Shown: in pieces, positions 463 to 13,655 of the stretch
Layout of the letters: every line of letters starts with the position of its first letter
Numbering within the stretch: position 1 is the stretch's first letter
Assembly: GCA_963727625.1 (NCBI GenBank)
Contig: CAVSHR010000004.1
Span: 1,088,001-1,152,000 of the forward strand
Length of the DNA stretch: 64,000 bases
Reading direction: 5' to 3'
Source of the DNA: an uncultured delta proteobacterium
GTDB lineage: Bacteria; Desulfobacterota; Binatia; UBA9968
Notes under the pieces: generated by a model
Database searches by the model: none
What the model saw: only the letters and a program-made list of their open reading frames with translations
What the model was told of the DNA's origin: nothing
Position numbers and translations under genes: made by a program

Positions 463-1978
463 CCCTAAACCGACAATAATTTTGGCGTTCACGCGGCCGA
501 TTTGAGTTTGTCTTCGATGGATTCGATCCATTTTTGCACTGGTGGAGCTACCGAGAAACGCAGCACCGAGTAGCCTTGAGGTTTGACGATGCGTGCCGGT
601 TGATGAATCAGCTTAAAACGGATCGTTTTCAAACTATGGAGCAAATAACTGCAAGTTCGTTTGCGCGATCTGGGCTTGGGCGTAGCTAAAGTCTGGAGCT
701 GAAAGTTTCTCACCAGGTTGTGCCCCAACACCGAGATTTGCTGCCAGGCCGAGTTCGCTCCGTAGTGGCGGGTGGGCACCACATCCAAAGCCCATTGCCC
801 TTTGAGCTCGGCGAAGGTTTTCTCTTGGGCCCCCCGCCCCGCCATGAAATTCCATAACGCTGCAGCACCTAAATCGAGATTGGTAGTCACCGCGGAGTAC
901 TCAAAGTAGCCATCCTCTGGGTCGAACAGATCGAGCTGGTAGTTCTTCTTGCTCTGGTGGTGAACAGGTTTTCGGTAAACCACCACGCGCAGCGTCTTTT
1001 CCCAGGCCTCCACATACAGTGAGACTTCGAACCATCCCATGCCGTCTCCTAGTCGATGCCAGCGTTGACGCTCGCGGACGATCGGCACCAGGCCTAACCA
1101 TTTCATAAACGGCACTTTGATCGCGTAGCGCGCCTTTCTGCGCTCCAACAAATGGATAATCTCTCGCTGGAAAAACGCCCCGTCCATGCGAAACTCTAAC
1201 GGCAACGCCCTTCCCAGCCGTGCTCTGACATCGTCGATCAGCTCGCCTAAGAATGCCTGTGCACCTTTGGAGTCATGGACATTGCCGGGCCGATTCTTGA
1301 CTCGCAAGATGTGGCCGGTCTGGGCCAGATGGGCCAGGATCGGATAGTACGAAGGATTCTTGCGATGATGTGGATTAAATCCCCGAAACGCCCACGCCAC
1401 ACTGGCTCCGGTCGTAATCACACTGCCGTCGATATCCAAAGTCAGACGTGCCAACGACTGCTTCTCGATCGCCTCATAGACGATCTGGCTGTTGATCTCC
1501 ACCAACGCTCTGAGCGACTTGTGGGTAAACCGCTTGAGCCAGCGCGCCACGCTGCGCTCGCGCGGTAGGCGCAACAAGCCGCAAAACCGCTTCACCAACG
1601 GATCGTCGCAAACGTAGTTCAGATGATCGAGCCGGCGTCCGCCCACTAAAATCAAAACCACGATCACCAAGACCATGTCGATGCAGCGATAGTCTCCACC
1701 GATCTCGTATCGCCCAAACTCCCTGCTCACTCTACGTCCCAGGTCGATCAGCGCTATGTAGCGCCGCATCAACTCCAAACCGCCGAACGCCGTGATGTCT
1801 TGAGCCGCAAACTCGATCTTCAAAAAACTCTTGCACGATGAATAAAAATCCGCTCTATTCAATCTCACTTAGAGTGGCCTCCTTGCAGGACGATTCAGTC
1901 GGTGTGGTAACTGCTTTATCTCCCGCAACCGTAGGCCATTTCAAGTTCTATCTGCTCTCTTTTATTGTCGGATTAGGG
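463..1978 (-). mobile_element. IS1380-family insertion sequence
   Basis: 17-bp terminal inverted repeats CCCTAAACCGACAATAA (463-479) and TTATTGTCGGATTAGGG (1962-1978), one mismatch. TTAA target duplication at 459-462 and 1979-1982. Confidence 0.92.
489..1868 (-). CDS. IS1380-family DDE transposase
   Basis: 459 aa with motifs TAFGGL, LDIDGS, YYPILAH, RPGNVH, RMDGAF and RGAQEKTFAELK. Confidence 0.92.
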   Translation of the reverse strand: MRLNRADFYSSCKSFLKIEFAAQDITAFGGLELMRRYIALIDLGRRVSREFGRYEIGGDYRCIDMVLVIVVLILVGGRRLDHLNYVCDDPLVKRFCGLLRLPRERSVARWLKRFTHKSLRALVEINSQIVYEAIEKQSLARLTLDIDGSVITTGASVAWAFRGFNPHHRKNPSYYPILAHLAQTGHILRVKNRPGNVHDSKGAQAFLGELIDDVRARLGRALPLEFRMDGAFFQREIIHLLERRKARYAIKVPFMKWLGLVPIVRERQRWHRLGDGMGWFEVSLYVEAWEKTLRVVVYRKPVHHQSKKNYQLDLFDPEDGYFEYSAVTTNLDLGAAALWNFMAGRGAQEKTFAELKGQWALDVVPTRHYGANSAWQQISVLGHNLVRNFQLQTLATPKPRSRKRTCSYLLHSLKTIRFKLIHQPARIVKPQGYSVLRFSVAPPVQKWIESIEDKLKSAA

Positions 1979-3579: not shown

Positions 3580-6500
3580 TCACGCTGCCAACACCTCGTT
3601 GAGTTCATCGAGCAACTTCGGAAGTTCGTCACCAAACAATTGATGTGCTTTTCCCAATCCTCCCCGCTGGCTGAAGGGCGCGTAGTTGAAATCGTTTGGC
3701 TCAATGCTGATCGCAGTTGCGATATGGTCGCGGATAAGTTCCAGCCAGGCCAACTGCTCCGGCGTAAATGTTAAAGTAGCAGAGGCGTCTCGCCTCTGTG
3801 TTTCCTCCGACGCCGGAGCAGACGCACTTCGCGTGCGCTGTTCGTCCGAAATAGTGGCAGAGCCGTCTCGGCTCTGTTCTTCGTCCGATCCCAGCGGCGG
3901 GACGCCGCTGCCACTTTGTTTCCTTACCAGCCACTGCTTAAACCCTTGATTGACCGTTTGGGCGAAACGGCTCAAGAACCTGCTCGCGTTCGAGCGCGAA
4001 GCGGACGAGGGAGACGAGGTCGGCGAAGCGGCCGGCTTGGGAACGGCCTTTGACCTTCTTCGGCGCGACGGCGGCGAAGGCGTCCCAGAGGCGGTCTTCG
4101 GTCCAGGCGGCGTGCTGTTCGCGGAGTTTTTTCTCCAGCTCCTTGAGCATCGGTTCGGTGAGGCGGTGACGGTACGGGCGGCTGTAAAGAAGCTGCAGCG
4201 CGGTGATCTCCGCTTTGTGCTTTTCGATGTAGTCGCGGAACGACTTCGTCAATTCATCGGCGTTTTGCGTCGTCTGCTGACTCGCGCCGGCGAAGAGCAC
4301 GCGGTCGCGGGTGATCACGTCGATCACCTGCTCGCTGGTCTGGTGGACCTTTATCAATAGCTGGCGCAGCGCGGGATTGCCCGCCAGCGGCGCGACAGCT
4401 TCCTTTGCCAAAGTGGCAGCGGCGTCCCGCCGCTGCTTCTCCGTGGGCTCAAGATAGCTGGGGTTCTCAGCGCCCCGGTGTGCGCGGATATATTCGCGGA
4501 ACTTTTCCATACTGGCTGGGCTTCGGACGATGTGGTCGAAAGATTCCTTTTGCCAGACCGCGATGGCTTTCTCGGACGGAGGCGGGACGCCTCCGCCACT
4601 CTCTTCGGATGCGGATTTTAAAGTGGCAGAGGCGTCTCGCCTCTGATTCTGGAATTCAGTCAAGCGGCGGGACGCCGCTTCCACTTTTAAGATTTCATGC
4701 GCCGTGAAGGACTTCCAAGAATGGAGGATTTCAGACAACCGATGGTCGCCCAATGGGGAGACCAGGACGTGAACATGATTGGACGCCACGGCAAATTCAT
4801 CCAGCTGGTAGCGATCGCCGTCAAAGTGCCGGAGAGCGTTTTCCATTAACTGTTTCACTTCCGGCAGAGCTAAAACGCAAGAACCGGTTCCGGCATCGAG
4901 CCACTGCTGAATGCGTTGGGGAAAGCGCTCGTAATATTCCATTCGCGCCACCGCGTCATGGGGCTCCGGGTGTTGGGCAAGCCACTGGTCTCTTTCCGTT
5001 CTCCATTCCGCAAGCTTTTCTAGCGGCAGCGAATCGGCGAGCCGAAAGGTCACAAAGTAAGTCGCGCCGTCCTGCCGCCAGTGCGGCAGATCACCCGTTA
5101 GGAACGCCACGGGTTCATTGGGATCAAAGTAATTGAGAGTGGCAGCGGCGTCCCGCCGCTGTTGTTCGAGAACCAAGAGGCGGGACGCCGCTGCCACTTT
5201 GTCCGGATTCACTGCTCCGAGAAGCTGCTGCGCGATCTCGCAGAGGGTCTGGCCCTGGGCCGTGGTCCGGACTTCCTTTGCGAGCGCTTCGTCGAAGCGT
5301 TTCTCCAACCGAACCAGCCGTCCGGCGAGGCTTTCGAGCACTTCGGGCTCACGATTGCCGAGGGCGACGGCGTCAAGCAGCTTGTCGAAGCTCACCGTGC
5401 GCTTGGTCTCCAGCGGGCGGGAATCGGTCAGGTCCTGCTCGCAGACACCAACGGCGTCGATGATGACAAAGCGGTTCTTGCGCTTGATGCCGGGATTGAC
5501 CTGTTCCATTTCCGTTTCCGATATTACCCGTACTCCCCTGCCCTTCATCTGCTCGAAAAAGCCGCGCGACTTGACCGAGCGCATGAAAAAGACGATCTCC
5601 AGCGGCTTTACGTCGGTGCCGGTGGCGATCATGTCGACGGTGACGGCGATGCGCGGGTTGTAGCTGTTGCGAAAGGCCTGAAGAATCTGATCCGGAGAGA
5701 GATTGGACACTTTCTTCCAGACGACTTCTTCTATTTCTTTTCCATCGGCTCCGGTTTTCTTCTCGACATCGCGCACGAAGCCGGTGCGGTAGGTTATTTT
5801 CTGGCAGAAGTCGTTGCCTTTGTCGAAGACCTCCCGGCAGATGCGCACGATATCGTCGGCATGGGAGTCGTCCTTGGCGAAGATCAGCGTCTTGGGCACC
5901 TGATAGCGGCCCGGAAAGATCTCCGTGAAAAGTTTATCGCGAAAGGTCTGTAGCACCGTGCGAATCTGATCCTCGGCGACCACGGCGCGGTCGAGCTGAG
6001 CGGCGTCGTACCGGAAGTCTTCGTCGAGTTGCTCCCAGCGTTTCTTGCGCGTCTGGCGGTCGCGCTTGTCGACATAGAACCCGGCGTCGATCTTGGCGCC
6101 TTGAGAGGTGACCTCGGTCTGGATGCGATAGACGTCGTAATTGACGTTGACGCCGTCGGCCACCGCCCGCTCGTGGTTGTATTCCATGACCAGATTCTGA
6201 TTGAAAAAGCCGAAGGTCTGCTTGGACGGCGTCGCAGTAAGGCCGATCAGATGGGCGTCGAAATACTCCAGCACCTGGCGCCAGAGGTTGTAGATCGAAC
6301 GGTGGCACTCGTCGGTGATGATGATGTCGAAGGTGTCGATGGGGAAGGCCGGGTTATATTCGATCGGCGGGGCTTCTTTGAAGAGCGATTCCAAGCCCTG
6401 GACCGAGCGCTCGTCGGCTTCCTCGTCGAGCTCCTGCCCTTTGAGCATGGAATAAAGCCGCTGGATGGTGCCGATGCAAACTCGGGCGCTGGTATCGAGC

Positions 6501-7297
6501 GTGTTCGAAGCCAAGCGCTGGATGATGTACTCCTCGTGGAACTTATAGTTGTTGTAGGGCGACACGTATTGCTGAAACTCTTTGAGCGTCTGCTTGCCCA
6601 GGTTGCCGCGATCGACCAGGAAGAGAATGCGCTTGGCGCCGGCGAACTTGATCAGCCGGTAGCTCAAGACAATCGCGAGCAGCGTCTTGCCGGAGCCGGT
6701 GGCCATCTGCACCAGCGCGCGCGGCCGGTTGTCGCGCAGCGACTGCTCGATGTTCATGATTGCCTGGGGCTTGGGCGGCCAGATGTCGTCGATCAGCGGC
6801 GGCATGTGCTGGATGCGGCTTAAGAAGTTACCGCTGCGTCCGGCGTAATCGGCGATCGTTTCGACCGGCTCGGGCGACGCGTAGTTTTCCACCCAGCCGA
6901 GCAGAGCGTCAGGACGGTGATACGCGAACACGTTGCGGCTCCGCGGTACGGGATCGAGACGGTTGGTGAAGCGCGTCTCGGTGCCGGTGGACTCGTAGCT
7001 GAACGGCAGCGGCGCGCGCCAGGCGGGGATGCCGAACGGCACGCCTTTAACGTACTTCTCTGACTGCTCCTCGACGCCGGTAAGCGAATGGCCGGCGGGT
7101 TTGGCTTCGATGGTACCGATCGCTTTGCCGTCGACGAACAGCGTGTAATCGGGCTCGCCGGTCTTAAACGTCAGCTCGCGCACGGCAACGCCGCGCGACG
7201 CGGCGAGATTGACGCCGTTCTTGTCCTGGACAACCCAACCGCAAGAGCCGATTAACGCGTCGATTTCTATTCGGGCTAGTTCCTCGGGATCGGGCAT
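3580..7297 (-). CDS. hsdR: Type I restriction subunit HsdR (EcoEI-like) with an internal RAYT domain; one frameshift near 3965 separates the C-terminus (3580-3975 frame)
   Basis: Nuclease motif PDYTLFVDGKAIGTIEAK, helicase motifs MATGSGKT, DECHRS, LTATP, TGTDV and QMKGRG, and C-terminus FTPEQLAWLELIRDHIA...FSQRGGLGKA. LEPF-AQTV is broken by one extra T (real change or homopolymer error). Confidence 0.9.
3776..5197. repeat. Nine REP palindromes, consensus GT(G/A)GCAG(C/A)GGCGTC(C/T)CGCC(G/T)CTG, several as inverted doublets
   Basis: Copies at 3776-3798, 3854-3876, 3892-3914 (rev), 4413-4435, 4577-4599 (rev), 4623-4645, 4662-4684 (rev), 5139-5161 and 5175-5197 (rev). Each has a GTAG/GTGG tetranucleotide followed by a hairpin. 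Confidence 0.9.
4470..5138 (-). mobile_element. REP-associated tyrosine transposase (RAYT / Y1 HUH) domain, in frame inside hsdR
   Basis: Motifs LPHWRQDGATYFVTFRLADSLP, HUH motif NHVHVL, ILHSWKSFTA, and WQKESFDHIVR...EYI with the putative catalytic Tyr. Confidence 0.88.
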
Positions 7298-7427
7298 GGT
7301 TACCGAAGAAGATTTAACGAGCCAACAGTTCTGCTTTAGCTAAGATGGCTTAACCAGTGTAATTTTTTCATAGATTACTGCATCGGGCGGGTTTCGGCCA
7401 AGGGCGATATTTAAAGGAAAACAAATA

Positions 7428-7788
7428 GGCATGAGGCGCGAGGCAACAGGCGTGAGACGGAGAAGAGTCGGATGAAATTGAAATACAAAAACCGCGATCG
7501 TGGCTCGGCGTCGTAATCCGCAAACCCGCCGTAATGGGATCGTATTCTAAGGACGACCGGTCCGATTGTCCAAGATGAAATTCCTATATCACTGTTATTG
7601 GTTATTCTTATATCACTCGGCCGCGGACAGCACTGCGACAATTGATCTCACGACCGGTTGAAGTCGTTCGAAACGTTCCATCGCCGCGGTCCCGGCGCCG
7701 CTTCACGGTTCAATGTTCAAAGGGTCCAAGGACCAGCTTCGTCGGGGAACTTCCACGTTTCGAGAATTCTCGAAGTGTCGAAATGACG
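7428..7788. repeat. ~360-bp repeated non-coding module, copy 1
   Basis: Highly similar to 9249-9530 plus 10850-10930. Shared blocks include GTGAGACGGAGAAGAGTCGGATGAAATTGAAATACAAAA and CCGGTCCGATTGTCCAAGATGAAATTCCTATATCACTGTTATTGG. Confidence 0.9.
7544..7572 (-). promoter_or_regulatory. Putative sigma-70 promoter inside repeat copy 1, pointing toward hsdR
   Basis: TGGACA-17 nt-TAGAAT with an AT-rich upstream tract. Conserved in copy 2 (9357-9386, 18-nt spacer). Confidence 0.55.
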
Positions 7789-8038
7789 TCAAATCCGCTC
7801 GCGCGATATTTGTCAGTCACCACTGCGACGGCTTGTTGAAAGTGCCATGCTCGTCTTTAACAGTCGTCGGAAGCTGCCTGGCGGCGAGAACGCCTGGGCG
7901 GATGTGCTTATAAAAGAACCCGTTCCAGTCGTTCAATCCCCCGGATCGAGTCCTTGGTCCGTTCAAATCGTTCCGGAGTGTGCACCAACGGGGGAGGCCG
8001 CACGTTTCGAGAATTCTCAAAACGTCAAAATGCCGAAG

Positions 8039-8299
8039 CTACTTCTCTAGACCAAGTCGCCGGCGAAGTTCGGCAGCTGGAACGGCACCTTCTTTTTTTA
8101 ACCGTGCCCTGGAGCGTTTAATGATTTTTAAAAACTTGCGGTTGGTGCTGAGAGCCACAGTTTCTTCATCGACGTTTCGGATGGGTACGACCGCGGCGAA
8201 CGGCTTGCCCTGCTTAACAACAATCACCGGGTCTTTTCTCGCCTTTTCGGCGTATTCCGACAGCGGTGCTGTGGCTTTTTTGAGTTCGACCCTTGTCAT
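8039..8299 (-). CDS. Phd/YefM-type antitoxin
   Basis: 86 aa with the Phd-like N-terminus LSEYAEKARKDPVIVVKQGKPFAAVV; overlaps the toxin stop. Confidence 0.75.
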   Translation of the reverse strand: MTRVELKKATAPLSEYAEKARKDPVIVVKQGKPFAAVVPIRNVDEETVALSTNRKFLKIIKRSRARLKKEGAVPAAELRRRLGLEK

Positions 8300-8595
8300 A
8301 GCTTGATTCCTTCTCCCCCAATTCGGACTCGCTCTCTTTCCTTGACGCCAACCGCCAGAATGGTCACTGTTGGAAGAGATTCGTCGCTCACTTCATAATA
8401 CACTCTCAACTCGCCAATGCGAAGTTCCCACGGTGCTATCGGGTTGGGCCGCATTGGCTTTCTGTTTCGCGTCTCTACCGCAGGCTGACTAAGCAATTGT
8501 CGATCAACGGTGTCGAGTACAATTCTTTACTGACGCGCCGTGAGCCCCCGCAGGTGATCCTCCGCCTCTGGAGAGTATTGGATGATGTAGGCCAA
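8296..8595 (-). pseudogene. RelE/ParE-family toxin with an internal nonsense codon
   Basis: TTG start at 8595 gives MAYIIQYSPEAEDHLRGLTARQ*RIVLDTVDRQL...PWELRIGELRVYYEV...AVGVKER. In-frame TAA at 8527-8529. Confidence 0.8.
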
Positions 8596-8621
8596 TCTAT
8601 TTCCTATTGAAATGTTTCCGC

Positions 8622-8650
8622 AATCTAATGGATTGCCCAGGGTTGGGCAA
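8622..8650 (-). promoter_or_regulatory. Promoter/operator of TA cassette 1
   Basis: TTGCCC-17-TAGATT, with inverted repeat TTGCCC/GGGCAA overlapping the -35. Confidence 0.5.
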
Positions 8651-9530
8651 GGAGGCGCGGGAATAGCAACGTCATGGTCGTGGGGAAAGGGTCGTGAGCG
8701 GGTTTACGAAGGATAAAGTATAAAACTAAAAAGACGCGAGTGTGATCGTGGCTCAGCGGCCGGAGATTGGGATCGGCGGGAGAGCGTCTGGATGACGCGG
8801 TTGCTCATCGGGGACTGCTTCGTTTCAGACGTTCAAGGAGCCTGTCCTGAGTTTATCGAAGGGTTCAATCGCTGCGCTGCGTTCAAATCGTTTCCGGATA
8901 GGTGTCGGGCACCGACAAATGGGCAAGAGTGGGTTACAGCCGGCGACGTGACTGGGGAAAAGGTCGTGATCGTGGCTCGGTGAAAAGCAGTGGGCGGCTT
9001 CCCCCGCCTTTCTATGGCCATCTTACTCTCACTTATCCCGTGTTCCGAATCTGGTGGGACGCGACAGGAGCACTAACGTGGTCCTGTTCGTGATTCGTGG
9101 TGGGGACGAAAAACCGTGTTCGCGAACGAGAGAAGGGCCGTGCGTGTGGCTCGTGACCTCGTAAGAAACTACCGGGATCGTCATTCGTGGACGTGCGGGG
9201 GAAACTTCCACGTTTCGGGAATTCTCGAAACGTCGAAATGTCAGAGCAGGCATGAGCAACAGGCGTGAGACGGAGAAGAGTCGGATGAAATTGAAATACA
9301 AAATCCGTGGACGGGACTCGGCCTCGTGATCAGTAAACCGACCGTAATCGGACTGCATTCTAAGGGACCACCGGTCCGATTGTCCAAGATGAAATTCCTA
9401 TATCACTGTTATTGGTTTTTCTCATATCACTCTGCCGAGGACAGCGCCGTGATGATTGGACTCACGACCGGTTGAAGTCGTTCGAAACGTTTCATCGCCG
9501 CGTTCCCGGCGCCGCTTCAAGGTTCAATGT

Positions 9531-10849
9531 CAGAAGCGTCCGACACGTTTCACAATAAAATCAGTTGGTTAGGGTCGTCGTAGAGATGTTCGTTGGTTGC
9601 CGAGTAGGTAAGGAGTTGAAACAAGGGAGTTTTCTCGAACGGTGTGATGCTCAGAATCTGTAGCATTTCGTGCAGGGACAACTCCAGATTGAGACGTTTG
9701 CGAACGATGGCAACTAGCACGTACACGGCTACCGCGATCCAGACCTGGGTCTTCACGGCGTTCTCGGATGTGCCGAAGAAGCGCTTGATGCGGAGGTGTT
9801 GCTTGATCCACTTGAAGAACAGCTCGACTTGCCAGCGCGATTTGTATAGCTGGCAAATGGTGAGAGGTGCCAAGGTCATATGATTGGTCAAAAACACCAA
9901 CCGCCGTCCTTCGGCATCGCGATAGCGAATCCGGCGCAGGCGCGCGGGATAGGCCTTCACAGAACGCGGTACGACCAAGTTTACTTCCTGGTCGCAGAGC
10001 AATCCGGTGCGGCGATCGACCGGTCGGGAGTAGACGCGCTTGAATTTGAAGTTGGCTTTGGCACGAGTGACGAAGAAGCTGGCGTCCTGATCGAGGCGGT
10101 ACAGCCGCTCGAAGTCGATGTAGCCGCGGTCCATGACGTAGAACGCGCCCGGTTCGGCAATCAACACATCGAGAACATTGACATCGTGCAGCTTGCCGTC
10201 GGAGATGTGAATGAAGCTGGGAATCGCGCCGCGCAAGTCGAGCAGCGTGTGCAGCTTGATCGCCGCTTTGGTCTTGCGAAACTTGGCCCACGCGAACAGC
10301 GACAAGCACAAGTCGATGGTGGTGGCATCCAAAGCGTAAACCGTCTCGGCAAGCTCCACAGAAAGAGAGTCCTGGGAATACAGTCTGCGTGCGGTGCGGA
10401 TAAGTGCATGAGCGTACTCGGCAAAGATGCGCCAATCGCGCGACTCGTTGGCGTCGGCCAGAGCACTGCGGCTTAGCTTGCCGCGAAGACCCATATGATA
10501 GAGCTTGGCGGGCTGCGCGCGCAAACACGCCTCGATATCGCGCAGGCTTTCGCGGTAGGTTAGCTGTGCGAAGGCCATCGAGAGAAACTGGTCCAAGCAG
10601 CTGAAGGTGCGCACGTTGAAATCGCCACGATACTTCGCCACCAGCCGACGAAACGTATGCCACGGCGCAAACTCCATGAGTTGTGCGAATACCAGATTGC
10701 CTGTGTGCATCGGTGCCTCCCGGGAAAGTCCCGAAAGACTGCCGACAATGACAATATAAATTCAAATCGTTAACACCTCGATACTTTATGAACACTGCGC
10801 AATACCTAGCTTTTTATCAGAGAGACCTAAAATCTGTCGGACGCTTCTG
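9531..10849 (-). mobile_element. IS4-family insertion sequence
   Basis: Perfect 15-bp terminal inverted repeats CAGAAGCGTCCGACA / TGTCGGACGCTTCTG. 9-bp target duplication GTTCAATGT at 9522-9530 and 10850-10858. Confidence 0.93.
9550..10710 (-). CDS. IS4-family transposase (DUF4372 + DDE_Tnp_1)
   Basis: Motifs AQLTYRESLRDIE, ALDATTIDL, KLHTLLDL, DRGYID and YKSRWQVELFFKWIKQHL. Confidence 0.95.
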   Translation of the reverse strand: MHTGNLVFAQLMEFAPWHTFRRLVAKYRGDFNVRTFSCLDQFLSMAFAQLTYRESLRDIEACLRAQPAKLYHMGLRGKLSRSALADANESRDWRIFAEYAHALIRTARRLYSQDSLSVELAETVYALDATTIDLCLSLFAWAKFRKTKAAIKLHTLLDLRGAIPSFIHISDGKLHDVNVLDVLIAEPGAFYVMDRGYIDFERLYRLDQDASFFVTRAKANFKFKRVYSRPVDRRTGLLCDQEVNLVVPRSVKAYPARLRRIRYRDAEGRRLVFLTNHMTLAPLTICQLYKSRWQVELFFKWIKQHLRIKRFFGTSENAVKTQVWIAVAVYVLVAIVRKRLNLELSLHEMLQILSITPFEKTPLFQLLTYSATNEHLYDDPNQLILL

Positions 10850-10933
10850 GTTCAATGTTCAAAGGGTCCAAGGACCAGCTTCGTCGGGGGAACTTCCACG
10901 TTTCGAGAATTCTCGAAGTGTCGAAATGACGGT

Positions 10934-11233
10934 CTAGATAAGCCGGCCCGAGGTCTGAACAACCTTCTCCAGTGCCTTCAACAACACCCGCGTTTCCCCC
11001 TGGTGCTTGAGCCAGTAGCGGACCTCTTTCCCGGCGGTGTCGTATCTCACGATATCGGCTGCGCGCAGCTTGGCCAGGTGACCGCTGACGGTTTGCACCG
11101 AGCGCCCGGCGAGTTTGGCCAGCGCGCTCGGCGTCATCGGTCCGCCTCGATCCAGGAGAATAACCAGATGGTAAATGACCGGATTGCCAAGCAGCCGACA
11201 GAGCCTCGACTCGCGATATTCGGTTTCGTCCAT
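10934..11233 (-). CDS. ArsR-family winged-HTH regulator
   Basis: LGNPV...TPSALAKLAGRSVQTVSGHLAKLRAADIV. Preceded by TTGACA-18-TACATC (11241-11270), 7 nt before the ATG. Confidence 0.8.
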   Translation of the reverse strand: MDETEYRESRLCRLLGNPVIYHLVILLDRGGPMTPSALAKLAGRSVQTVSGHLAKLRAADIVRYDTAGKEVRYWLKHQGETRVLLKALEKVVQTSGRLI

Positions 11234-11304
11234 CGCCAGCGATGTACGGCGAAACCGCCGACCCTGTCAAGCGCCCTTCCACGTTTCGGGAATTCTTAAA
11301 AAAT

Positions 11305-11595
11305 CTACCGGTAACTGCCACGGCGCAGGAGGGCTCTAATCTCGTCGTGGTTGCCAAGAAAGGAAACATAAAGTTCGGGGCCTCGGTCTTGAAAGAGAAA
11401 TCGAAGATCCCGGTTGCCGCGGCATTCAAAGAGCTTGTCTCCTAACTTGCGGATTCCCACACCGCTGTGCACATGGGGCCGGCCAAAACCATCCACCAGG
11501 TCACAAAGCGCAAGGAGACATTCTACTCTTTCGTTCTTTGGCAGTTCGCGCAGGCGGCGGATGACCGCGGGATCGATGGTAAGAAGCTTACTCAA
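11305..11595 (-). CDS. RelE-like toxin (putative)
   Basis: 96 aa with GIRKLGDKLFECRGNRDLRFLF...FLGNHDEI; overlaps the upstream antitoxin. Confidence 0.7.
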   Translation of the reverse strand: MSKLLTIDPAVIRRLRELPKNERVECLLALCDLVDGFGRPHVHSGVGIRKLGDKLFECRGNRDLRFLFQDRGPELYVSFLGNHDEIRALLRRGSYR

Positions 11596-11866
11596 GCATA
11601 TTCCTAAGCTCTTGCACCGTTACCGACGCGAGTTTTTTGTCCCGCTTCAAGCGCCGATAGCGCCGGTCGGTGGCTTTTTCCAAGGCGGCCACCTGCTCGG
11701 GCGGAGCGCCATACTCCCGCTGGGCATAGTCTGTGGACTCGACGTCGACCTTCCTGAGCGCGACGATGTCGGCGCCGCAGACAATACCGATATCCTCGCC
11801 CCGCGCCGCCGCCTCGAGCCAACGGCCCAAATTCTTCTTCGCATCCGTGATCGTTAGGGTCTTCAT
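11588..11866 (-). CDS. Phd-like antitoxin (putative)
   Basis: N-terminus MKTLTITDAKKNLGRWLEAAARGEDIGI is Phd-like. Confidence 0.7.
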   Translation of the reverse strand: MKTLTITDAKKNLGRWLEAAARGEDIGIVCGADIVALRKVDVESTDYAQREYGAPPEQVAALEKATDRRYRRLKRDKKLASVTVQELRNMLE

Positions 11867-11872
11867 AAAGAC

Positions 11873-11901
11873 TCTATATCGCCGCTATATAGATCTGTCA
11901 A
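11873..11901 (-). promoter_or_regulatory. Leaderless sigma-70 promoter with operator for TA cassette 2
   Basis: TTGACA-17-TATAGA, 6 nt before the ATG, with CTATAT repeats overlapping it. Confidence 0.65.
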
Positions 11902-12129
11902 GGATGGAGCCAGGGCTCTTTCCTATCGTTCCTAACGGGGATCGGAGCGTTCCGGCCGTTTACGAATAGGCGTGCGGCGCGAGGCAACAGGCGCGAGTGC
12001 CGGAATGAGGAGGGATAAAGGATAATAGCGCTATCGGCGTTCAAGCGTTCAAGGTTTAAGGGTTCAAGGACGGATTCTCAGGGGAACTTCCAGGTTTCAG
12101 AAATTTTTGAAACGTCGAAATGAAAAATA

Positions 12130-12445
12130 GCCAGAAGGCATCCGGCAACAGGCGATCGCCAAAGCCAAATTCACGCTCAATTGCTCAAGCTTGATCCGGA
12201 GGTCCTTTTGAAGCTCGACGGTTTGCCCAAGCCGAATGAAAGCTCGAACCACGTAGACACTCATCCGTACCGCGTGCCGGCTATTGAGCACATCGGCTGT
12301 CATGATCGCGCCGTGCCCGTGAAGACCTAGGGTCGATACTTGATTTTTTTCTCGCGTTTCAAGATCACAGATTGTGATCTTGAAACTGCGATGGCGATGG
12401 CCTCAGCGCGGCTCGAACGAAAACTGACACCCGCAGGAAATTTCT
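12130..12445 (-). pseudogene. ORF6N (KilA-N-like) DNA-binding protein remnant
   Basis: SRSQSVILK...YRP*VFT-HGAIMTADVLNSRHAVRMSVYVVRAFIRL, with a stop codon and a frameshift. Confidence 0.7.
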
Positions 12446-12614
12446 CTCGCCAAATACGCTGCCCACGCAAAGGTCACCCAACCCGTGACCCCCATGGAAA
12501 TTTGATCTCTTAACTTGGCGAGCTTTGCGCGAGATATTCCGATTTCTTGGCCGCGGCTCTGCCGCGCCGGACCCTTCGCGGTGCATAATGCGCCACACCA
12601 AAGCCTGAATAACC

Positions 12615-13655
12615 TCAATCCTCGACGATCGACACGGTCGCCTTGACGCCTTTCTCTGCGAGGATCCGAACATACTCTTTTTGGATTTCCGCCGGCTCTT
12701 CGGCCATCGGGATCATCGTCCAGAGCGGATTGCGAAAGCGGTCGTGGCTGTATTTCGGGCTGTCGCCGCGCATGGCGAAGTGGCGCATGGCGCCTTGGCC
12801 GGTGTTGAAGTGGCCGTGCCACATGAGATCGTCGGGCGAATAAACCGTGCCGACCTTGAAATCGTGGCGCTGCTTTTCCTCGCCGTCTTTCCACAGCATG
12901 ACGTATCCCTCGCCTTGGGTGATGATGATCACCGCGCCGGGGCCATGGCGGTGAAAGGTGCTGCGGCAGCCCGGCGGAAATTCCGATACATGGCAGCCGT
13001 AAGTCGTATCAGCCAGGGTAAAGCGCATATGCCGCACGCCCTTCCCTTTCATCGGAAACTCGTCGAGCGGAAATTGATTGACGTCCGGAACCAGGTTGGT
13101 TTCCCAGTAACGCTCGGCCATATGCTTATTGTAGCGGAGAAAATCATCGCCCTGATGAAAGCGGTCGCGAAAATTGAACGGATTGCGAAAAATAAAATCC
13201 CGGTTATGAAAAATATTGATCATGCGCGGACAGGTGGTGCCGACGAACAAGCGCACCGGTTCGTCGCGCGCGCCGTTGTAGTGAACATAGGATGAGTTCA
13301 GCGGTATGGCGAAAATCGCCCCGGGACCCCACTCGAAGGTCACTTTACTGGACCCGTCCTGCCAGATCGCAGTGGCGCCCCGTCCTTTGGCGACGTAGAC
13401 GATCTCCTCGAACAGATGGCGCTGCGGCAGGGTCTCCCCGCCCGGCGCGATCTCGCAAACATAGGCGTCGGTCTGCTGCTGGTTGGAAAGATTGAGATAA
13501 CAGCCGCGCGCGCCCATTCGCTCCCAGGGATCGAGCGTTAACTCGATTACGTCGTTGACCACGTTCCCCTTGACGATGGGAATGCCCTCTTCGGCTTGCA
13601 GAAGATCGTAGGGGGTCGGTCCGAAATCGAGATGTTCGCGGAACGGCAAGAGCAT
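12615..13655 (-). CDS. Bicupin protein (gentisate 1,2-dioxygenase-like)
   Basis: Two cupin motifs, QRHLFEEIVYV...H and FHRHGPGA...WHGHFN. RBS AAAGGAG before ATG 13655. Confidence 0.8.
   Translation of the reverse strand: MLLPFREHLDFGPTPYDLLQAEEGIPIVKGNVVNDVIELTLDPWERMGARGCYLNLSNQQQTDAYVCEIAPGGETLPQRHLFEEIVYVAKGRGATAIWQDGSSKVTFEWGPGAIFAIPLNSSYVHYNGARDEPVRLFVGTTCPRMINIFHNRDFIFRNPFNFRDRFHQGDDFLRYNKHMAERYWETNLVPDVNQFPLDEFPMKGKGVRHMRFTLADTTYGCHVSEFPPGCRSTFHRHGPGAVIIITQGEGYVMLWKDGEEKQRHDFKVGTVYSPDDLMWHGHFNTGQGAMRHFAMRGDSPKYSHDRFRNPLWTMIPMAEEPAEIQKEYVRILAEKGVKATVSIVED

What the first reader, a model, noticed from the sequence alone, without database searches (positions are those of the whole stretch)
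7744..12445. Integron-like cassette array delimited by a 24-bp palindrome rather than attC
Seen: six same-orientation copies of GGGGAACTTCC-ACGTTTCGAGAATTCTCGAAACGT-CGAAATG. Three lie within ~10 nt of the stop codon of a minus-strand cassette (8039, 10934, 11305). One abuts the ORF6N remnant, one lies ~30 nt from a gene 3' remnant (stop 7817), and one precedes the 360-bp module. Cargo is two TA pairs, an ArsR HTH and ORF6N, all co-oriented with the R-M operon. No integrase or attC boxes are present. Inference: a cassette capture/shuffling system that uses this hairpin as the recombination or target site.
Basis: partly seen in the sequence, partly recalled or inferred. Interest (0 to 1): 0.85.

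Follow-up and report, generated by a model that had tools for sequence, protein, structure and literature searches.

The report
Regulator-binding palindromes punctuating a shuffled gene array
A short DNA palindrome that separates small toxin-antitoxin and other accessory genes in this soil bacterium is most likely the docking site of a small regulator protein encoded inside the same gene array, not an integron-type recombination site.

Summary
Six same-orientation copies of a ~45-nt unit built on a 24-nt palindrome lie at 7744-12125, each at a junction between small minus-strand genes.

The unit is rare in the genome (about 21 copies). It occurs in 17 of 31 genomes of the genus, in co-oriented arrays of up to 13 copies. 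Segments between copies recur in different orders in different genomes, so a modular, shuffled array is real.

The integron-like mechanism is not supported:
- No recombinase lies near any array.
- The genome's true integron integrase sits 720 kb away with classical attC sites.
- Its presence does not track the motif.

One cassette gene (10934-11233, minus) encodes an ArsR/SmtB-type winged-helix protein with one palindrome before its promoter and one after its stop. Across 12 genome loci and 80 metagenome loci, the palindrome's inner bases change symmetrically with the protein's recognition helix.

Best reading: the palindrome is this dimer's cognate site, an operator or roadblock at cassette junctions. 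The conserved units are also the places where modules get exchanged. Binding is inferred, not shown.

The parts
7744..7788 (+). Palindrome unit copy 1. It is the end of copy 1 of the ~360-nt module upstream of hsdR.
7991..8035 (+). Palindrome unit copy 2, 4 nt from the stop of the Phd-type antitoxin gene. Its left arm is type A and its right arm type B.
9199..9243 (+). Palindrome unit copy 3. It is followed by copy 2 of the ~360-nt module.
10887..10931 (+). Palindrome unit copy 4, 3 nt after the stop of the ArsR-like gene. This is the gene's downstream site.
11270..11314 (+). Palindrome unit copy 5, upstream of the ArsR-like promoter. The left arm and centre are kept; the right arm is replaced and overlaps the stop of ORF 11305-11595.
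12081..12125 (+). Palindrome unit copy 6. It is degenerate and abuts the remnant of an ORF6N-family protein.
10934..11233 (-). ArsR/SmtB-type winged-helix protein of 99 aa, the proposed binder of the palindrome. Its recognition helix is RSVQTVSGHLAKL.
11242..11270 (-). Promoter-like stretch of the ArsR-like gene, between the upstream palindrome and the ATG. It reads TTGACA, 17 nt, TACATC, then 8 nt to the ATG. I read it by eye; the promoter scan did not list it.
   Evidence: not listed
8039..8299 (-). Phd/YefM-type antitoxin of 86 aa.
8296..8658 (-). ParE-like toxin gene broken by an in-frame stop. The open part is 8296-8496.
11588..11866 (-). 92-aa ORF with a weak Phd/YefM N-terminal match. 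Putative antitoxin.
11305..11595 (-). 96-aa ORF overlapping the previous one by 8 nt, with no family match. Putative toxin partner by position only.
12097..12303 (-). 68-aa ORF, 40% identical over 43 residues to residues 94-136 of an ORF6N-family protein from a related array.
9531..10849 (-). IS4-type insertion sequence carrying a DUF4372 + DDE_Tnp_1 transposase at 9550-10710. It has 15-nt inverted ends and a 9-nt target duplication, and it splits module copy 2.
7421..7743 (-). Non-coding module upstream of hsdR with a promoter-like site TGGACA-17-TAGAAT (7572 to 7544). A second copy lies at 9244-9530 plus 10850-10886.
3938..7297 (-). Orphan type I restriction subunit HsdR of 1119 aa, flanking the array.

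Best explanation
The 24-nt palindrome, inside an oriented unit of about 40-45 nt, is the cognate double-stranded DNA site of a small ArsR/SmtB-type winged-helix homodimer. That protein is encoded by one module of the array (window 10934-11233, minus strand).

The regulator gene carries one site just upstream of its own promoter and one just after its stop. Most other modules (toxin-antitoxin pairs, ORF6N, PIN, NERD, 23S-IVS four-helix proteins) carry one site a few to about 70 nt after their stop, always in the same orientation.

Inferred function: the bound dimer autoregulates its own gene and acts as an operator or roadblock that insulates or silences the co-oriented modules.

Because the unit is the only sequence shared by all modules, it is also where module order changes between genomes. 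The most likely route is homologous exchange between units, possibly after DNA uptake. No dedicated recombinase has been identified.

Shown: the anatomy, the distribution, the shuffling and the protein-site co-variation. Inferred: DNA binding, the regulatory effect and the route of exchange.
For: 1. Fold. The protein has an ArsR/SmtB fold.
- Pfam HTH_20 (E 7.9e-9) and HTH_5.
- NCBIfam HTH_metalloreg, 42 bits, below its cut-off of 55.
- PDB sequence hits to CmtR and ArsR.
- Model pLDDT 86.9. Best structural matches are NolR 4omy_A (TM 0.75), ArsR, SmtB and CzrA.
- Homodimer model score 0.82 against a best control of 0.00. That mark was reached by 20 of 30 proteins solved as pairs and 1 of 23 solved as single chains. 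The runs share at least 95% of their contacts and the partner pLDDT is at least 89. The pass may come from memory of solved ArsR dimers.

2. Genome loci. In 12 genome loci holding homologues of 47-100% identity, 11 have a palindrome immediately upstream of the gene. The G018 gene is frameshifted and its upstream site is cut off in the printed stretch. Eleven have a palindrome just after the stop; G011 does not. The inner bases differ by protein clade and change symmetrically in both arms: CGAGAATTCTCG, TGAGAATTCTCA, CCGGAATTCCGG, TCGGAATTCCGA, TCGCAATTGCGA, GCGCAATTGAGC. G012 holds two paralogues, each beside its own variant.

3. Metagenome loci. Eighty loci were kept of 403 relatives found. 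The sites are centred 57-64 nt before the ATG and about 23-30 nt after the stop.
- Recognition helix RSVQTVS goes with arms TTTCGAG/CTCGAAA (type A).
- Recognition helix R[HQ]VST[IV]S goes with arms TTTTGAG/CTCAAAA (type B).
- Upstream sites match the protein type in 62 of 66 scored cases; downstream sites match in 66 of 69.

4. Not an array-wide effect. In type-B loci the other sites are mostly type A (20 A against 5 B). Eleven of the 37 type-B loci listed have a type-A site at -133 followed by the type-B site at -61. So both flanking sites go with the regulator gene, which simple one-site-per-cassette linkage would not give.

5. Sequence is conserved more than structure.
- 32-mers are identical between species, while the adjacent ArsR gene DNA is only 78-81% identical between three genomes.
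- Single-strand folds are weak: -2.1 to -9.5 kcal/mol, z-scores -2.98 to +0.65.
- G-T over A-C excess rests on one column. Without it the counts are 22 against 17, p 0.52.

6. Array facts.
- 64 further sites share the regulator gene's orientation, 1 is opposite and 5 are unclear.
- 27 of 67 units abut an antisense stop, against 6 of 67 in the mirror control.
- Modules are shuffled between genomes.
Against: - Binding was not measured, and no tool here models protein with DNA.
- Co-variation can partly reflect common descent of a gene with its flanking DNA, and many metagenome loci are near-duplicates of one population.
- Sites far outnumber regulator genes. G000 has about 21 sites and one gene.
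- G012 (94% complete) has 16 type-A matches at up to 3 mismatches but no close type-A homologue.
- G017 (80% complete) has type-B sites but no type-B gene was found.
- In G018 the type-A gene is frameshifted, yet 13 sites persist.
- Most sites lie 3' of genes, at variable distance (30-500 nt by a noisy ORF call) from the next start. That is not where classical operators lie.
- Half-sites broken near the palindrome centre exist, as a central crossover would leave: window 11270, and two in G018.
- The conserved asymmetric flanks (GGGGAACTTCC and CGAAATG) are not explained by a symmetric dimer.
Confidence: 0.55

Rival explanations
1. The palindrome is the core site of a new integron-like capture system. 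A site-specific recombinase, not yet identified and encoded elsewhere, excises and inserts gene-plus-site cassettes. The ArsR-like protein might act as an accessory or specificity factor.
For: - Co-oriented arrays of up to 13 units occur in several genomes.
- The same segments recur with different neighbours in five genomes.
- The unit is tied to gene 3' ends.
- An 11-6-11 reading of the palindrome resembles core sites of tyrosine recombinases. That resemblance is recalled, not tested.
- Three half-sites are broken within the central 6 nt or so.
- The cargo (toxin-antitoxin pairs, small unknown genes) resembles that of chromosomal integrons.
Against: - No tyrosine recombinase, serine recombinase or IS110-type gene lies on or near the array stretches in the five genomes searched.
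- Y1-type genes are many and diverse, and none is directly flanked by units.
- The integron integrase and the motif are independent across 31 genomes: both 9, integrase only 6, motif only 8, neither 8.
- Central crossover predicts chimeric sites beside type-B regulator genes that sit in type-A arrays. Chimeras are rare: 3 of 33 scored downstream sites and 0 of 34 scored upstream sites.
- The one presence/absence case is a 663-nt against 236-nt replacement not bounded by sites.
- Homology breakpoints only outline the unit and cannot place a crossover.
Confidence: 0.2
2. The unit is a selfish REP-like or MITE-like repeat spread in trans by one of the genome's many Y1 (IS200-like/RAYT-like) transposases. 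It piles up in accessory regions, and the link with the ArsR gene is hitch-hiking.
For: - G000 gave 35 matches to Y1_Tnp. Some lie 3-25 kb from arrays: G000 C4 at 1,056 kb and 1,070 kb, G018 C13 at 1,761 kb, G017 C2 at 242 and 249 kb.
- REPs are short palindromes found after genes. This is recalled, not tested.
Against: - There are only about 21 copies.
- Copies are co-oriented in arrays rather than alternating.
- No Y1 gene is flanked by units, and the nearby Y1 proteins belong to different, distant branches.
- The single-strand hairpin is weak.
- Protein-specific symmetric changes of the site are not expected from hitch-hiking.
Confidence: 0.07
3. The unit acts without any protein, as an RNA or DNA hairpin at gene 3' ends (terminator or mRNA stabiliser) that travels with the modules.
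For: - The unit sits just after stop codons in one orientation.
- 91.4% of cells are paired, and one column pair shows C-G to T-A double changes: 44 against 12.
Against: - No T-run follows the stem. None of the six units is listed by the terminator scan, which found 7 sites against 7.2 expected in shuffles.
- Fold energies are modest, and three of the six strand folds tested are no better than shuffles.
- The exact sequence, not just the pairing, is kept between species.
- There is no strand bias in wobble pairs once one column is set aside.
- One copy sits upstream of the regulator's promoter at a fixed distance.
Confidence: 0.08
4. The palindrome is bound by some other host factor. It co-varies with the ArsR-like gene only because the gene and both flanking sites are inherited or moved as one block.
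For: - The site-gene-site block recurs as a self-contained module in unrelated contexts.
- Sites persist where the gene is broken or was not found, as in G018 and G012.
Against: - A symmetric change of both arms in both copies needs selection for a two-fold symmetric reader.
- Several site variants coexist in one genome, each beside its own paralogue. One common host factor does not explain that.
Confidence: 0.1

Closest known systems
ArsR/SmtB-family repressors with palindromic operators (NolR, SmtB, CzrA, HlyU)
   Same: - Same fold and predicted dimer.
- A two-fold symmetric site of about 24 bp next to the protein's own promoter.
   Different: - About 20 sites per genome, most at the 3' ends of unrelated accessory genes and all co-oriented.
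- A second site lies directly after the regulator's own stop.
- No metal-sensing motif was looked for.
Chromosomal integron cassette arrays and CALINs (attC clusters lacking an integrase)
   Same: - Co-oriented small genes, each followed by a conserved repeat.
- Toxin-antitoxin-rich cargo.
- Module order differs between related genomes.
   Different: - The repeat is a 24-32-nt near-perfect palindrome without R boxes, bulges or a bipartite stem.
- The genome's real attC sites near intI look different.
- There is no link to IntI.
Global regulators of mobile elements with many dispersed palindromic operators, such as KorB with its OB sites on IncP plasmids, and the ArsR-like centromere binder AspA of pNOB8. 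The KorB comparison is recalled; AspA appears at rank 46 of the fold search.
   Same: A small dimeric DNA binder encoded within the element and a short palindrome repeated at many intergenic places of the same element.
   Different: - The arrays here are chromosomal and show no partition or transfer genes.
- Sites have a fixed orientation and abut stop codons.
pdif modules of Acinetobacter plasmids (XerC/D sites flanking toxin-antitoxin and resistance modules). Recalled, not tested here.
   Same: Modules bounded by short recombinase-type sites with no dedicated recombinase nearby, and toxin-antitoxin cargo.
   Different: - As I recall, pdif sites flank modules in alternating orientation and resemble dif. 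Here all units are direct repeats.
- No comparison with this genome's dif site was made.
REP/BIME elements with RAYT transposases
   Same: A short extragenic palindrome after genes, and many Y1-type genes in the genome.
   Different: Low copy number, co-oriented arrays, and no Y1 gene flanked by units.

Membership tests
Integron / CALIN (attC array) | An integron integrase (IntI) next to the array or, for a CALIN, attC sites that fit the attC model | tested here: not met
   The only IntI-class hit (TIGR02249, 467.8 bits) lies at C4:370957-371898, 720 kb from the window. IntegronFinder's attC model could not be run.
Integron / CALIN (attC array) | R'' (RYYYAAC) and R' (GTTRRRY) boxes bracketing an imperfect bipartite hairpin of 57-141 nt with extrahelical bases. 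The definition is recalled. | tested here: not met
   A regex for complementary box pairs gives 0 in window 7600-12300 on either strand. Its sensitivity is low: it found 1 pair per strand in the intI locus. The unit is a 24-32-nt near-perfect palindrome. Sites near intI read GCCTAAC...GTTAGCC or GTTAGGC, by eye.
Integron / CALIN (attC array) | Co-oriented cassettes, each gene followed by one site | tested here: met
Integron / CALIN (attC array) | Sites co-occur with IntI across genomes | tested here: not met
   Across 31 genomes: both 9, IntI only 6, motif only 8, neither 8. One of these genomes (G005) is unpublished. Many are incomplete assemblies.
ArsR/SmtB regulator with operator | Winged helix-turn-helix fold of the family | tested here: met
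ArsR/SmtB regulator with operator | Homodimer through the N- and C-terminal helices | tested here: met
   Model only. Score 0.82 against a best control of 0.00; interface residues 4-25 and 76-96. The pass may come from memory of solved family dimers.
ArsR/SmtB regulator with operator | Inverted-repeat site at the protein's own promoter | tested here: met
   The site is centred 57-64 nt before the ATG, next to a TTGACA box, in the clade of the window's gene. In the clade at about 50% identity it ends about 17 nt before the start.
ArsR/SmtB regulator with operator | Specific binding of the protein to the site | not testable with these tools
   Only co-variation of the recognition helix with the half-site is available.
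REP / RAYT | High copy number, and a Y1 gene flanked by inverted REPs | tested here: not met
   About 21 copies. There are 35 Y1_Tnp matches; the nearest to a unit is about 3 kb away, and none is flanked by units.
Intrinsic terminator | G+C-rich stem followed by a T-run | tested here: not met
   None of the six units is listed by the scan. The sequence after the stem is CGAAATG or, on the other strand, GGAAGTTCCCC.
Xer/dif-type modules | Sites resembling the host dif site, flanking modules in alternating orientation. The definition is recalled. | tested here: inconclusive
   The orientation is direct, not alternating. The genome's dif site was not identified, so likeness was not tested.
Known RNA families (Rfam) | A match to any of the 4227 models | tested here: not met
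   0 matches at E up to 1 in window 7000-13000.

The most novel reading that the evidence does not exclude
A second, non-integron cassette platform. Gene-plus-site modules would be captured and reshuffled at a palindromic junction site that is read by a cassette-borne ArsR-type adaptor. The adaptor would recruit a host or distant recombinase, with paralogous adaptor-site pairs (types A to F) defining separate exchange groups. The platform would be widespread in soil Binatia.
Probability: 0.15. Interest if true: 0.9.

Novelty: new variant of a known kind. Interest (0 to 1): 0.6.

Why it matters
If the reading holds, this lineage keeps arrays of toxin-antitoxin and defence-like modules under an array-encoded regulator. 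Record titles of related contigs call the lineage Candidatus Binatia, a soil group without cultures. The regulator's binding site is built into every module junction.

That would be a simple, testable design for insulating or silencing horizontally acquired genes. It would also be a ready-made set of orthogonal protein-operator pairs; at least six site variants were seen.

The case also shows that integron-like arrays can arise without integron machinery. That matters for tools which equate cassette arrays with attC sites.

If the bolder reading is true, it would be a new gene-capture system. I found no description of such a system in four full-text searches (listings and abstract openings only).

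Tried and rejected
- Rfam scan of window 7000-13000: no match.
- Public reads. All 20 runs that hold a part of the stretch hold a share of only 0.15-0.17. Four runs were laid. Contig depth of 2-29 per bin runs from 9424 to 10839, that is, over the IS. Small patches cover some units, and no contig bridges the array. Nothing can be said about circles or empty sites.
- Greedy ORF calling and a home-made codon-usage caller were too noisy for short toxin-antitoxin genes. I used a mirror-controlled count of ORF stops instead.
- Homology breakpoint scan around the regulator's two sites. Breaks pile up at +17 to +19 and at +20 to +21 from the centre. That only outlines the shared unit and cannot locate a crossover.
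- Search for an empty site. The solitary regulator module of G004 was compared with the syntenic stretch of G044. The difference is a 663-nt against 236-nt replacement, not bounded by palindromes.
- Replication-terminator (RTP/Ter-like) idea. The GC skew of contig C4 turns at about 270 kb, far from the arrays at 1.0-1.22 Mb.
- Strand-specific hairpin idea. The wobble excess comes from one column only.
- GTTCAA tandem motifs upstream of the units. They are a genome-wide intergenic repeat (245 clusters) and not specific to the unit.
- attC box regex. It has low sensitivity even in the true integron locus, so I rely mainly on direct reading of the sequence.
- Literature: four searches found nothing on such arrays. 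I saw listings and abstract openings only and read no paper. Supplementary files were not consulted.
I corrected that and sent it again.

Full report
**What is there**

The window holds six + strand copies of a ~45-nt unit, GGGGAACTTCC-ACGTTTCGAGAATTCTCGAAACGT-CGAAATG. They start at 7744, 7991, 9199, 10887, 11270 and 12081, with 62-100% identity to the reference copy. The 24-mer alone has four matches at up to 3 mismatches, against 0.00 expected.

All recognisable genes between the copies are on the minus strand:
- a Phd-type antitoxin (8039-8299)
- a ParE-like toxin with an in-frame stop
- an ArsR-type gene (10934-11233)
- a second small gene pair (11305-11866)
- a remnant related to ORF6N-family proteins (12097-12303)

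An IS4-type element (9531-10849) has 15-nt inverted ends and a 9-nt target duplication. It splits the second copy of a ~360-nt non-coding module whose first copy lies upstream of hsdR. hsdR is an orphan, because the neighbouring ORFs are a bicupin protein and TctA/TctB transporter genes.

**Distribution**

In the 6.6-Mb genome a profile search finds about 21 copies. They cluster on contig C4 at 1.00, 1.05, 1.096-1.100 (the window) and 1.21-1.22 Mb, with single copies on C5, C9 and C12.

The GTTCAA tandem motifs that often precede the unit are a separate, genome-wide intergenic repeat of 245 clusters.

A 32-nt version of the unit, at up to 3 mismatches, gives these counts:
- 17 of 31 genomes of the genus, counting this one
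- 0 of 16 genomes of two other families of the order

Record titles of related contigs read 'Candidatus Binatia bacterium' or 'uncultured delta proteobacterium'.

In G018, G017, G012, G043 and G045 the units form co-oriented arrays of up to 13 copies, spaced 0.2-7 kb apart.

Of 67 units examined, 27 have an ORF of at least 70 aa on the opposite strand ending within -12 to +70 nt of the CGAAATG end. The mirror-image control gives 6. Units within one genome are not independent.

Cargo in related arrays includes DUF433 with a PIN-like DUF5615 protein, PIN, ParE, DUF4258, ORF6N, NERD, a 23S-rRNA-IVS four-helix protein and an AAA_14/DUF4143 ATPase.

**Modularity**

I cut 12 array stretches at the palindrome centres and clustered the segments. 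Eight segment types are shared between genomes, in different orders.

The ArsR segment (379-387 nt) occurs in five genomes with different neighbours each time. Alignments show that homology starts at the left unit and stops at the right unit.

**Is it an integron or another recombinase system?**

The genome has one integron integrase (TIGR02249, 467.8 bits; the family cut-off is 265 bits) at C4:370957-371898. Sites of the classical kind surround it (GCCTAAC ... GTTAGCC or GTTAGGC) and look nothing like the unit.

Across 31 genomes the integrase and the unit are unlinked: both in 9, integrase only in 6, unit only in 8, neither in 8. One of these genomes, G005, is unpublished, and several are incomplete.

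In five genomes no serine recombinase, tyrosine recombinase or IS110-type gene lies on or near the array stretches. The one exception is a tyrosine recombinase 3 kb from the single copy on G000 C12.

Y1 (IS200-like) genes are abundant, with 35 matches in G000, and a few lie 3-25 kb from arrays. They are diverse, and none is flanked by units.

The unit is not scored as an intrinsic terminator, matches no Rfam family, and folds only weakly as a single strand.

**The key result**

The ArsR-type gene has one palindrome just upstream and one just after its stop. In the window's own clade a TTGACA box lies between the upstream palindrome and the gene.

The same arrangement holds in most of the 12 genome loci with homologues of 47-100% identity. 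Eleven show the upstream site and eleven the downstream site.

The inner bases of the palindrome differ by protein clade and always change in both arms: CGAGAATTCTCG, TGAGAATTCTCA, CCGGAATTCCGG, TCGGAATTCCGA, TCGCAATTGCGA, GCGCAATTGAGC. G012 has two paralogues, each with its own variant.

A metagenome scan found 403 relatives, of which I examined the 80 kept. Sites are centred 57-64 nt before the ATG and about 23-30 nt after the stop.

| Recognition helix | Site arms | Type |
|---|---|---|
| RSVQTVS | TTTCGAG/CTCGAAA | A |
| R[HQ]VST[IV]S | TTTTGAG/CTCAAAA | B |

- Upstream sites: 62 of 66 scored match the protein type. Fourteen loci had no site call.
- Downstream sites: 66 of 69 scored match. 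Six had no site call and five were cut by a contig end.

This is not an array-wide effect:
- In type-B loci the remaining sites are mostly type A (20 against 5).
- In 11 of the 37 type-B loci listed, a type-A site at -133 is followed by the type-B site at -61.
- Chimeric sites are rare.

So both sites flanking the regulator gene follow the gene. That is what a cognate protein-operator pair predicts. It is not what a one-site-per-cassette system, or crossover at the palindrome centre, predicts.

Many metagenome loci are near-duplicates, so these counts overstate the number of independent events.

**The protein**

It has an ArsR/SmtB fold:
- model pLDDT 86.9
- best structural matches NolR, ArsR, SmtB and CzrA, with the centromere binder AspA at rank 46
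- sequence-level matches

A homodimer model scores 0.82 against a best control of 0.00. That mark was reached by 20 of 30 proteins solved as pairs and 1 of 23 solved as single chains. The runs share at least 95% of their contacts and the partner pLDDT is at least 89. The pass may reflect memory of solved family dimers. A two-fold symmetric dimer fits a palindromic site.

**Pairing statistics**

On 67 units, 91.4% of cells pair. One pair shows C-G to T-A double changes (44 against 12). Another is A-T in 35 copies and G-T in 28.

The excess of G-T over A-C (50 against 19) comes from that one column. Without it the counts are 22 against 17, p 0.52.

There is no sign that one strand must fold. Symmetry is as well explained by a dimer on duplex DNA.

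**What remains open**

- Sites outnumber regulator genes, and persist where the gene is broken (G018) or was not found (G012, G017).
- Most sites sit at gene 3' ends rather than at promoters.
- The asymmetric flanks are conserved and unexplained.
- Three half-sites are broken near the centre.
- No reads, circles or clean empty sites could be obtained.

The route by which modules are exchanged is therefore unknown. I favour homologous exchange between the 45-100-nt conserved units, because no recombinase is seen. That is inference.

**Verdict**

The array is modular and shuffled, but the motif is best read as the binding site of an array-borne ArsR-type regulator rather than as an attC substitute.

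The combination seems undescribed in the four literature searches I ran. It consists of a regulator gene bracketed by its own sites, further co-oriented sites after the stop of many array modules, and several co-varying protein-site variants.

Noticed in passing
outside the window: G000 C4:368000-386000 (locus L009): A true integron. The intI gene (385-aa ORF, TIGR02249 at 467.8 bits) has classical attC-like sites (GCCTAAC...GTTAGCC or GTTAGGC) on both sides of it. Nearby small minus-strand genes include toxin-antitoxin-like pairs.
   Followed up: partly
whole genome; in the window for example 7707-7730, 8824-8900, 12036-12075: Tandem 7-9-nt repeats of GTTCAA-type motifs form 245 clusters genome-wide. 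Many occur as inverted pairs that could form long hairpins between genes. Their function is unknown.
   Followed up: partly
window 3938-7297 (minus), protein residues 827-877: The orphan HsdR has a weak Y1_Tnp (IS200-like) match inside it (21-24 bits). A separate 131-aa ORF at 3580-3975 repeats the end of the EcoEI_R_C domain, so the gene's 3' end may be rearranged.
   Followed up: no
window 9531-10849: Near-identical copies of the IS4-type element occur in contigs of soil and permafrost runs from four studies. The contigs end at the IS ends 9530/9531 and 10849.
   Followed up: partly
window 8497-8658 (minus): The ParE-like toxin of the first toxin-antitoxin pair has an in-frame stop where the G018 relative reads through. 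Its antitoxin is intact.
   Followed up: yes
whole genome G000: There are 35 matches to Y1_Tnp, mostly in ORFs of about 300-320 aa that begin MARRPR.../MARPLR... They form a large, diverse family, and their relation to the GTTCAA repeats was not examined.
   Followed up: partly
window 7421-7456, 11962-11997, 12123-12158, and after many units in relatives: A second repeated stretch rich in GGCA/GAGG words (such as ...GGCATGAGGCGCGAGGCAACAGGCGTGAG) often follows the CGAAATG end of the unit when no gene end does.
   Followed up: no
window 7544-7572 and 9357-9386 (minus): The best sigma-70-like promoter matches of the region (TGGACA, 17-18 nt, TAGAAT; 10 of 12 positions) lie in the two copies of the ~360-nt module. 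The first points at hsdR. Next to it are two direct TATATCACT repeats.
   Followed up: no
window 489-1868 (minus): A second transposase of a different family (DDE_Tnp_1_4, 459 aa) lies downstream of hsdR. The array therefore sits in a stretch rich in mobile DNA.
   Followed up: no
G000 contig C4 at about 270 kb: The cumulative GC skew of contig C4 turns at about 270 kb, close to a XerC/D-type recombinase gene at 274.6 kb and 100 kb from the integron. This is probably a replication origin or terminus.
   Followed up: no
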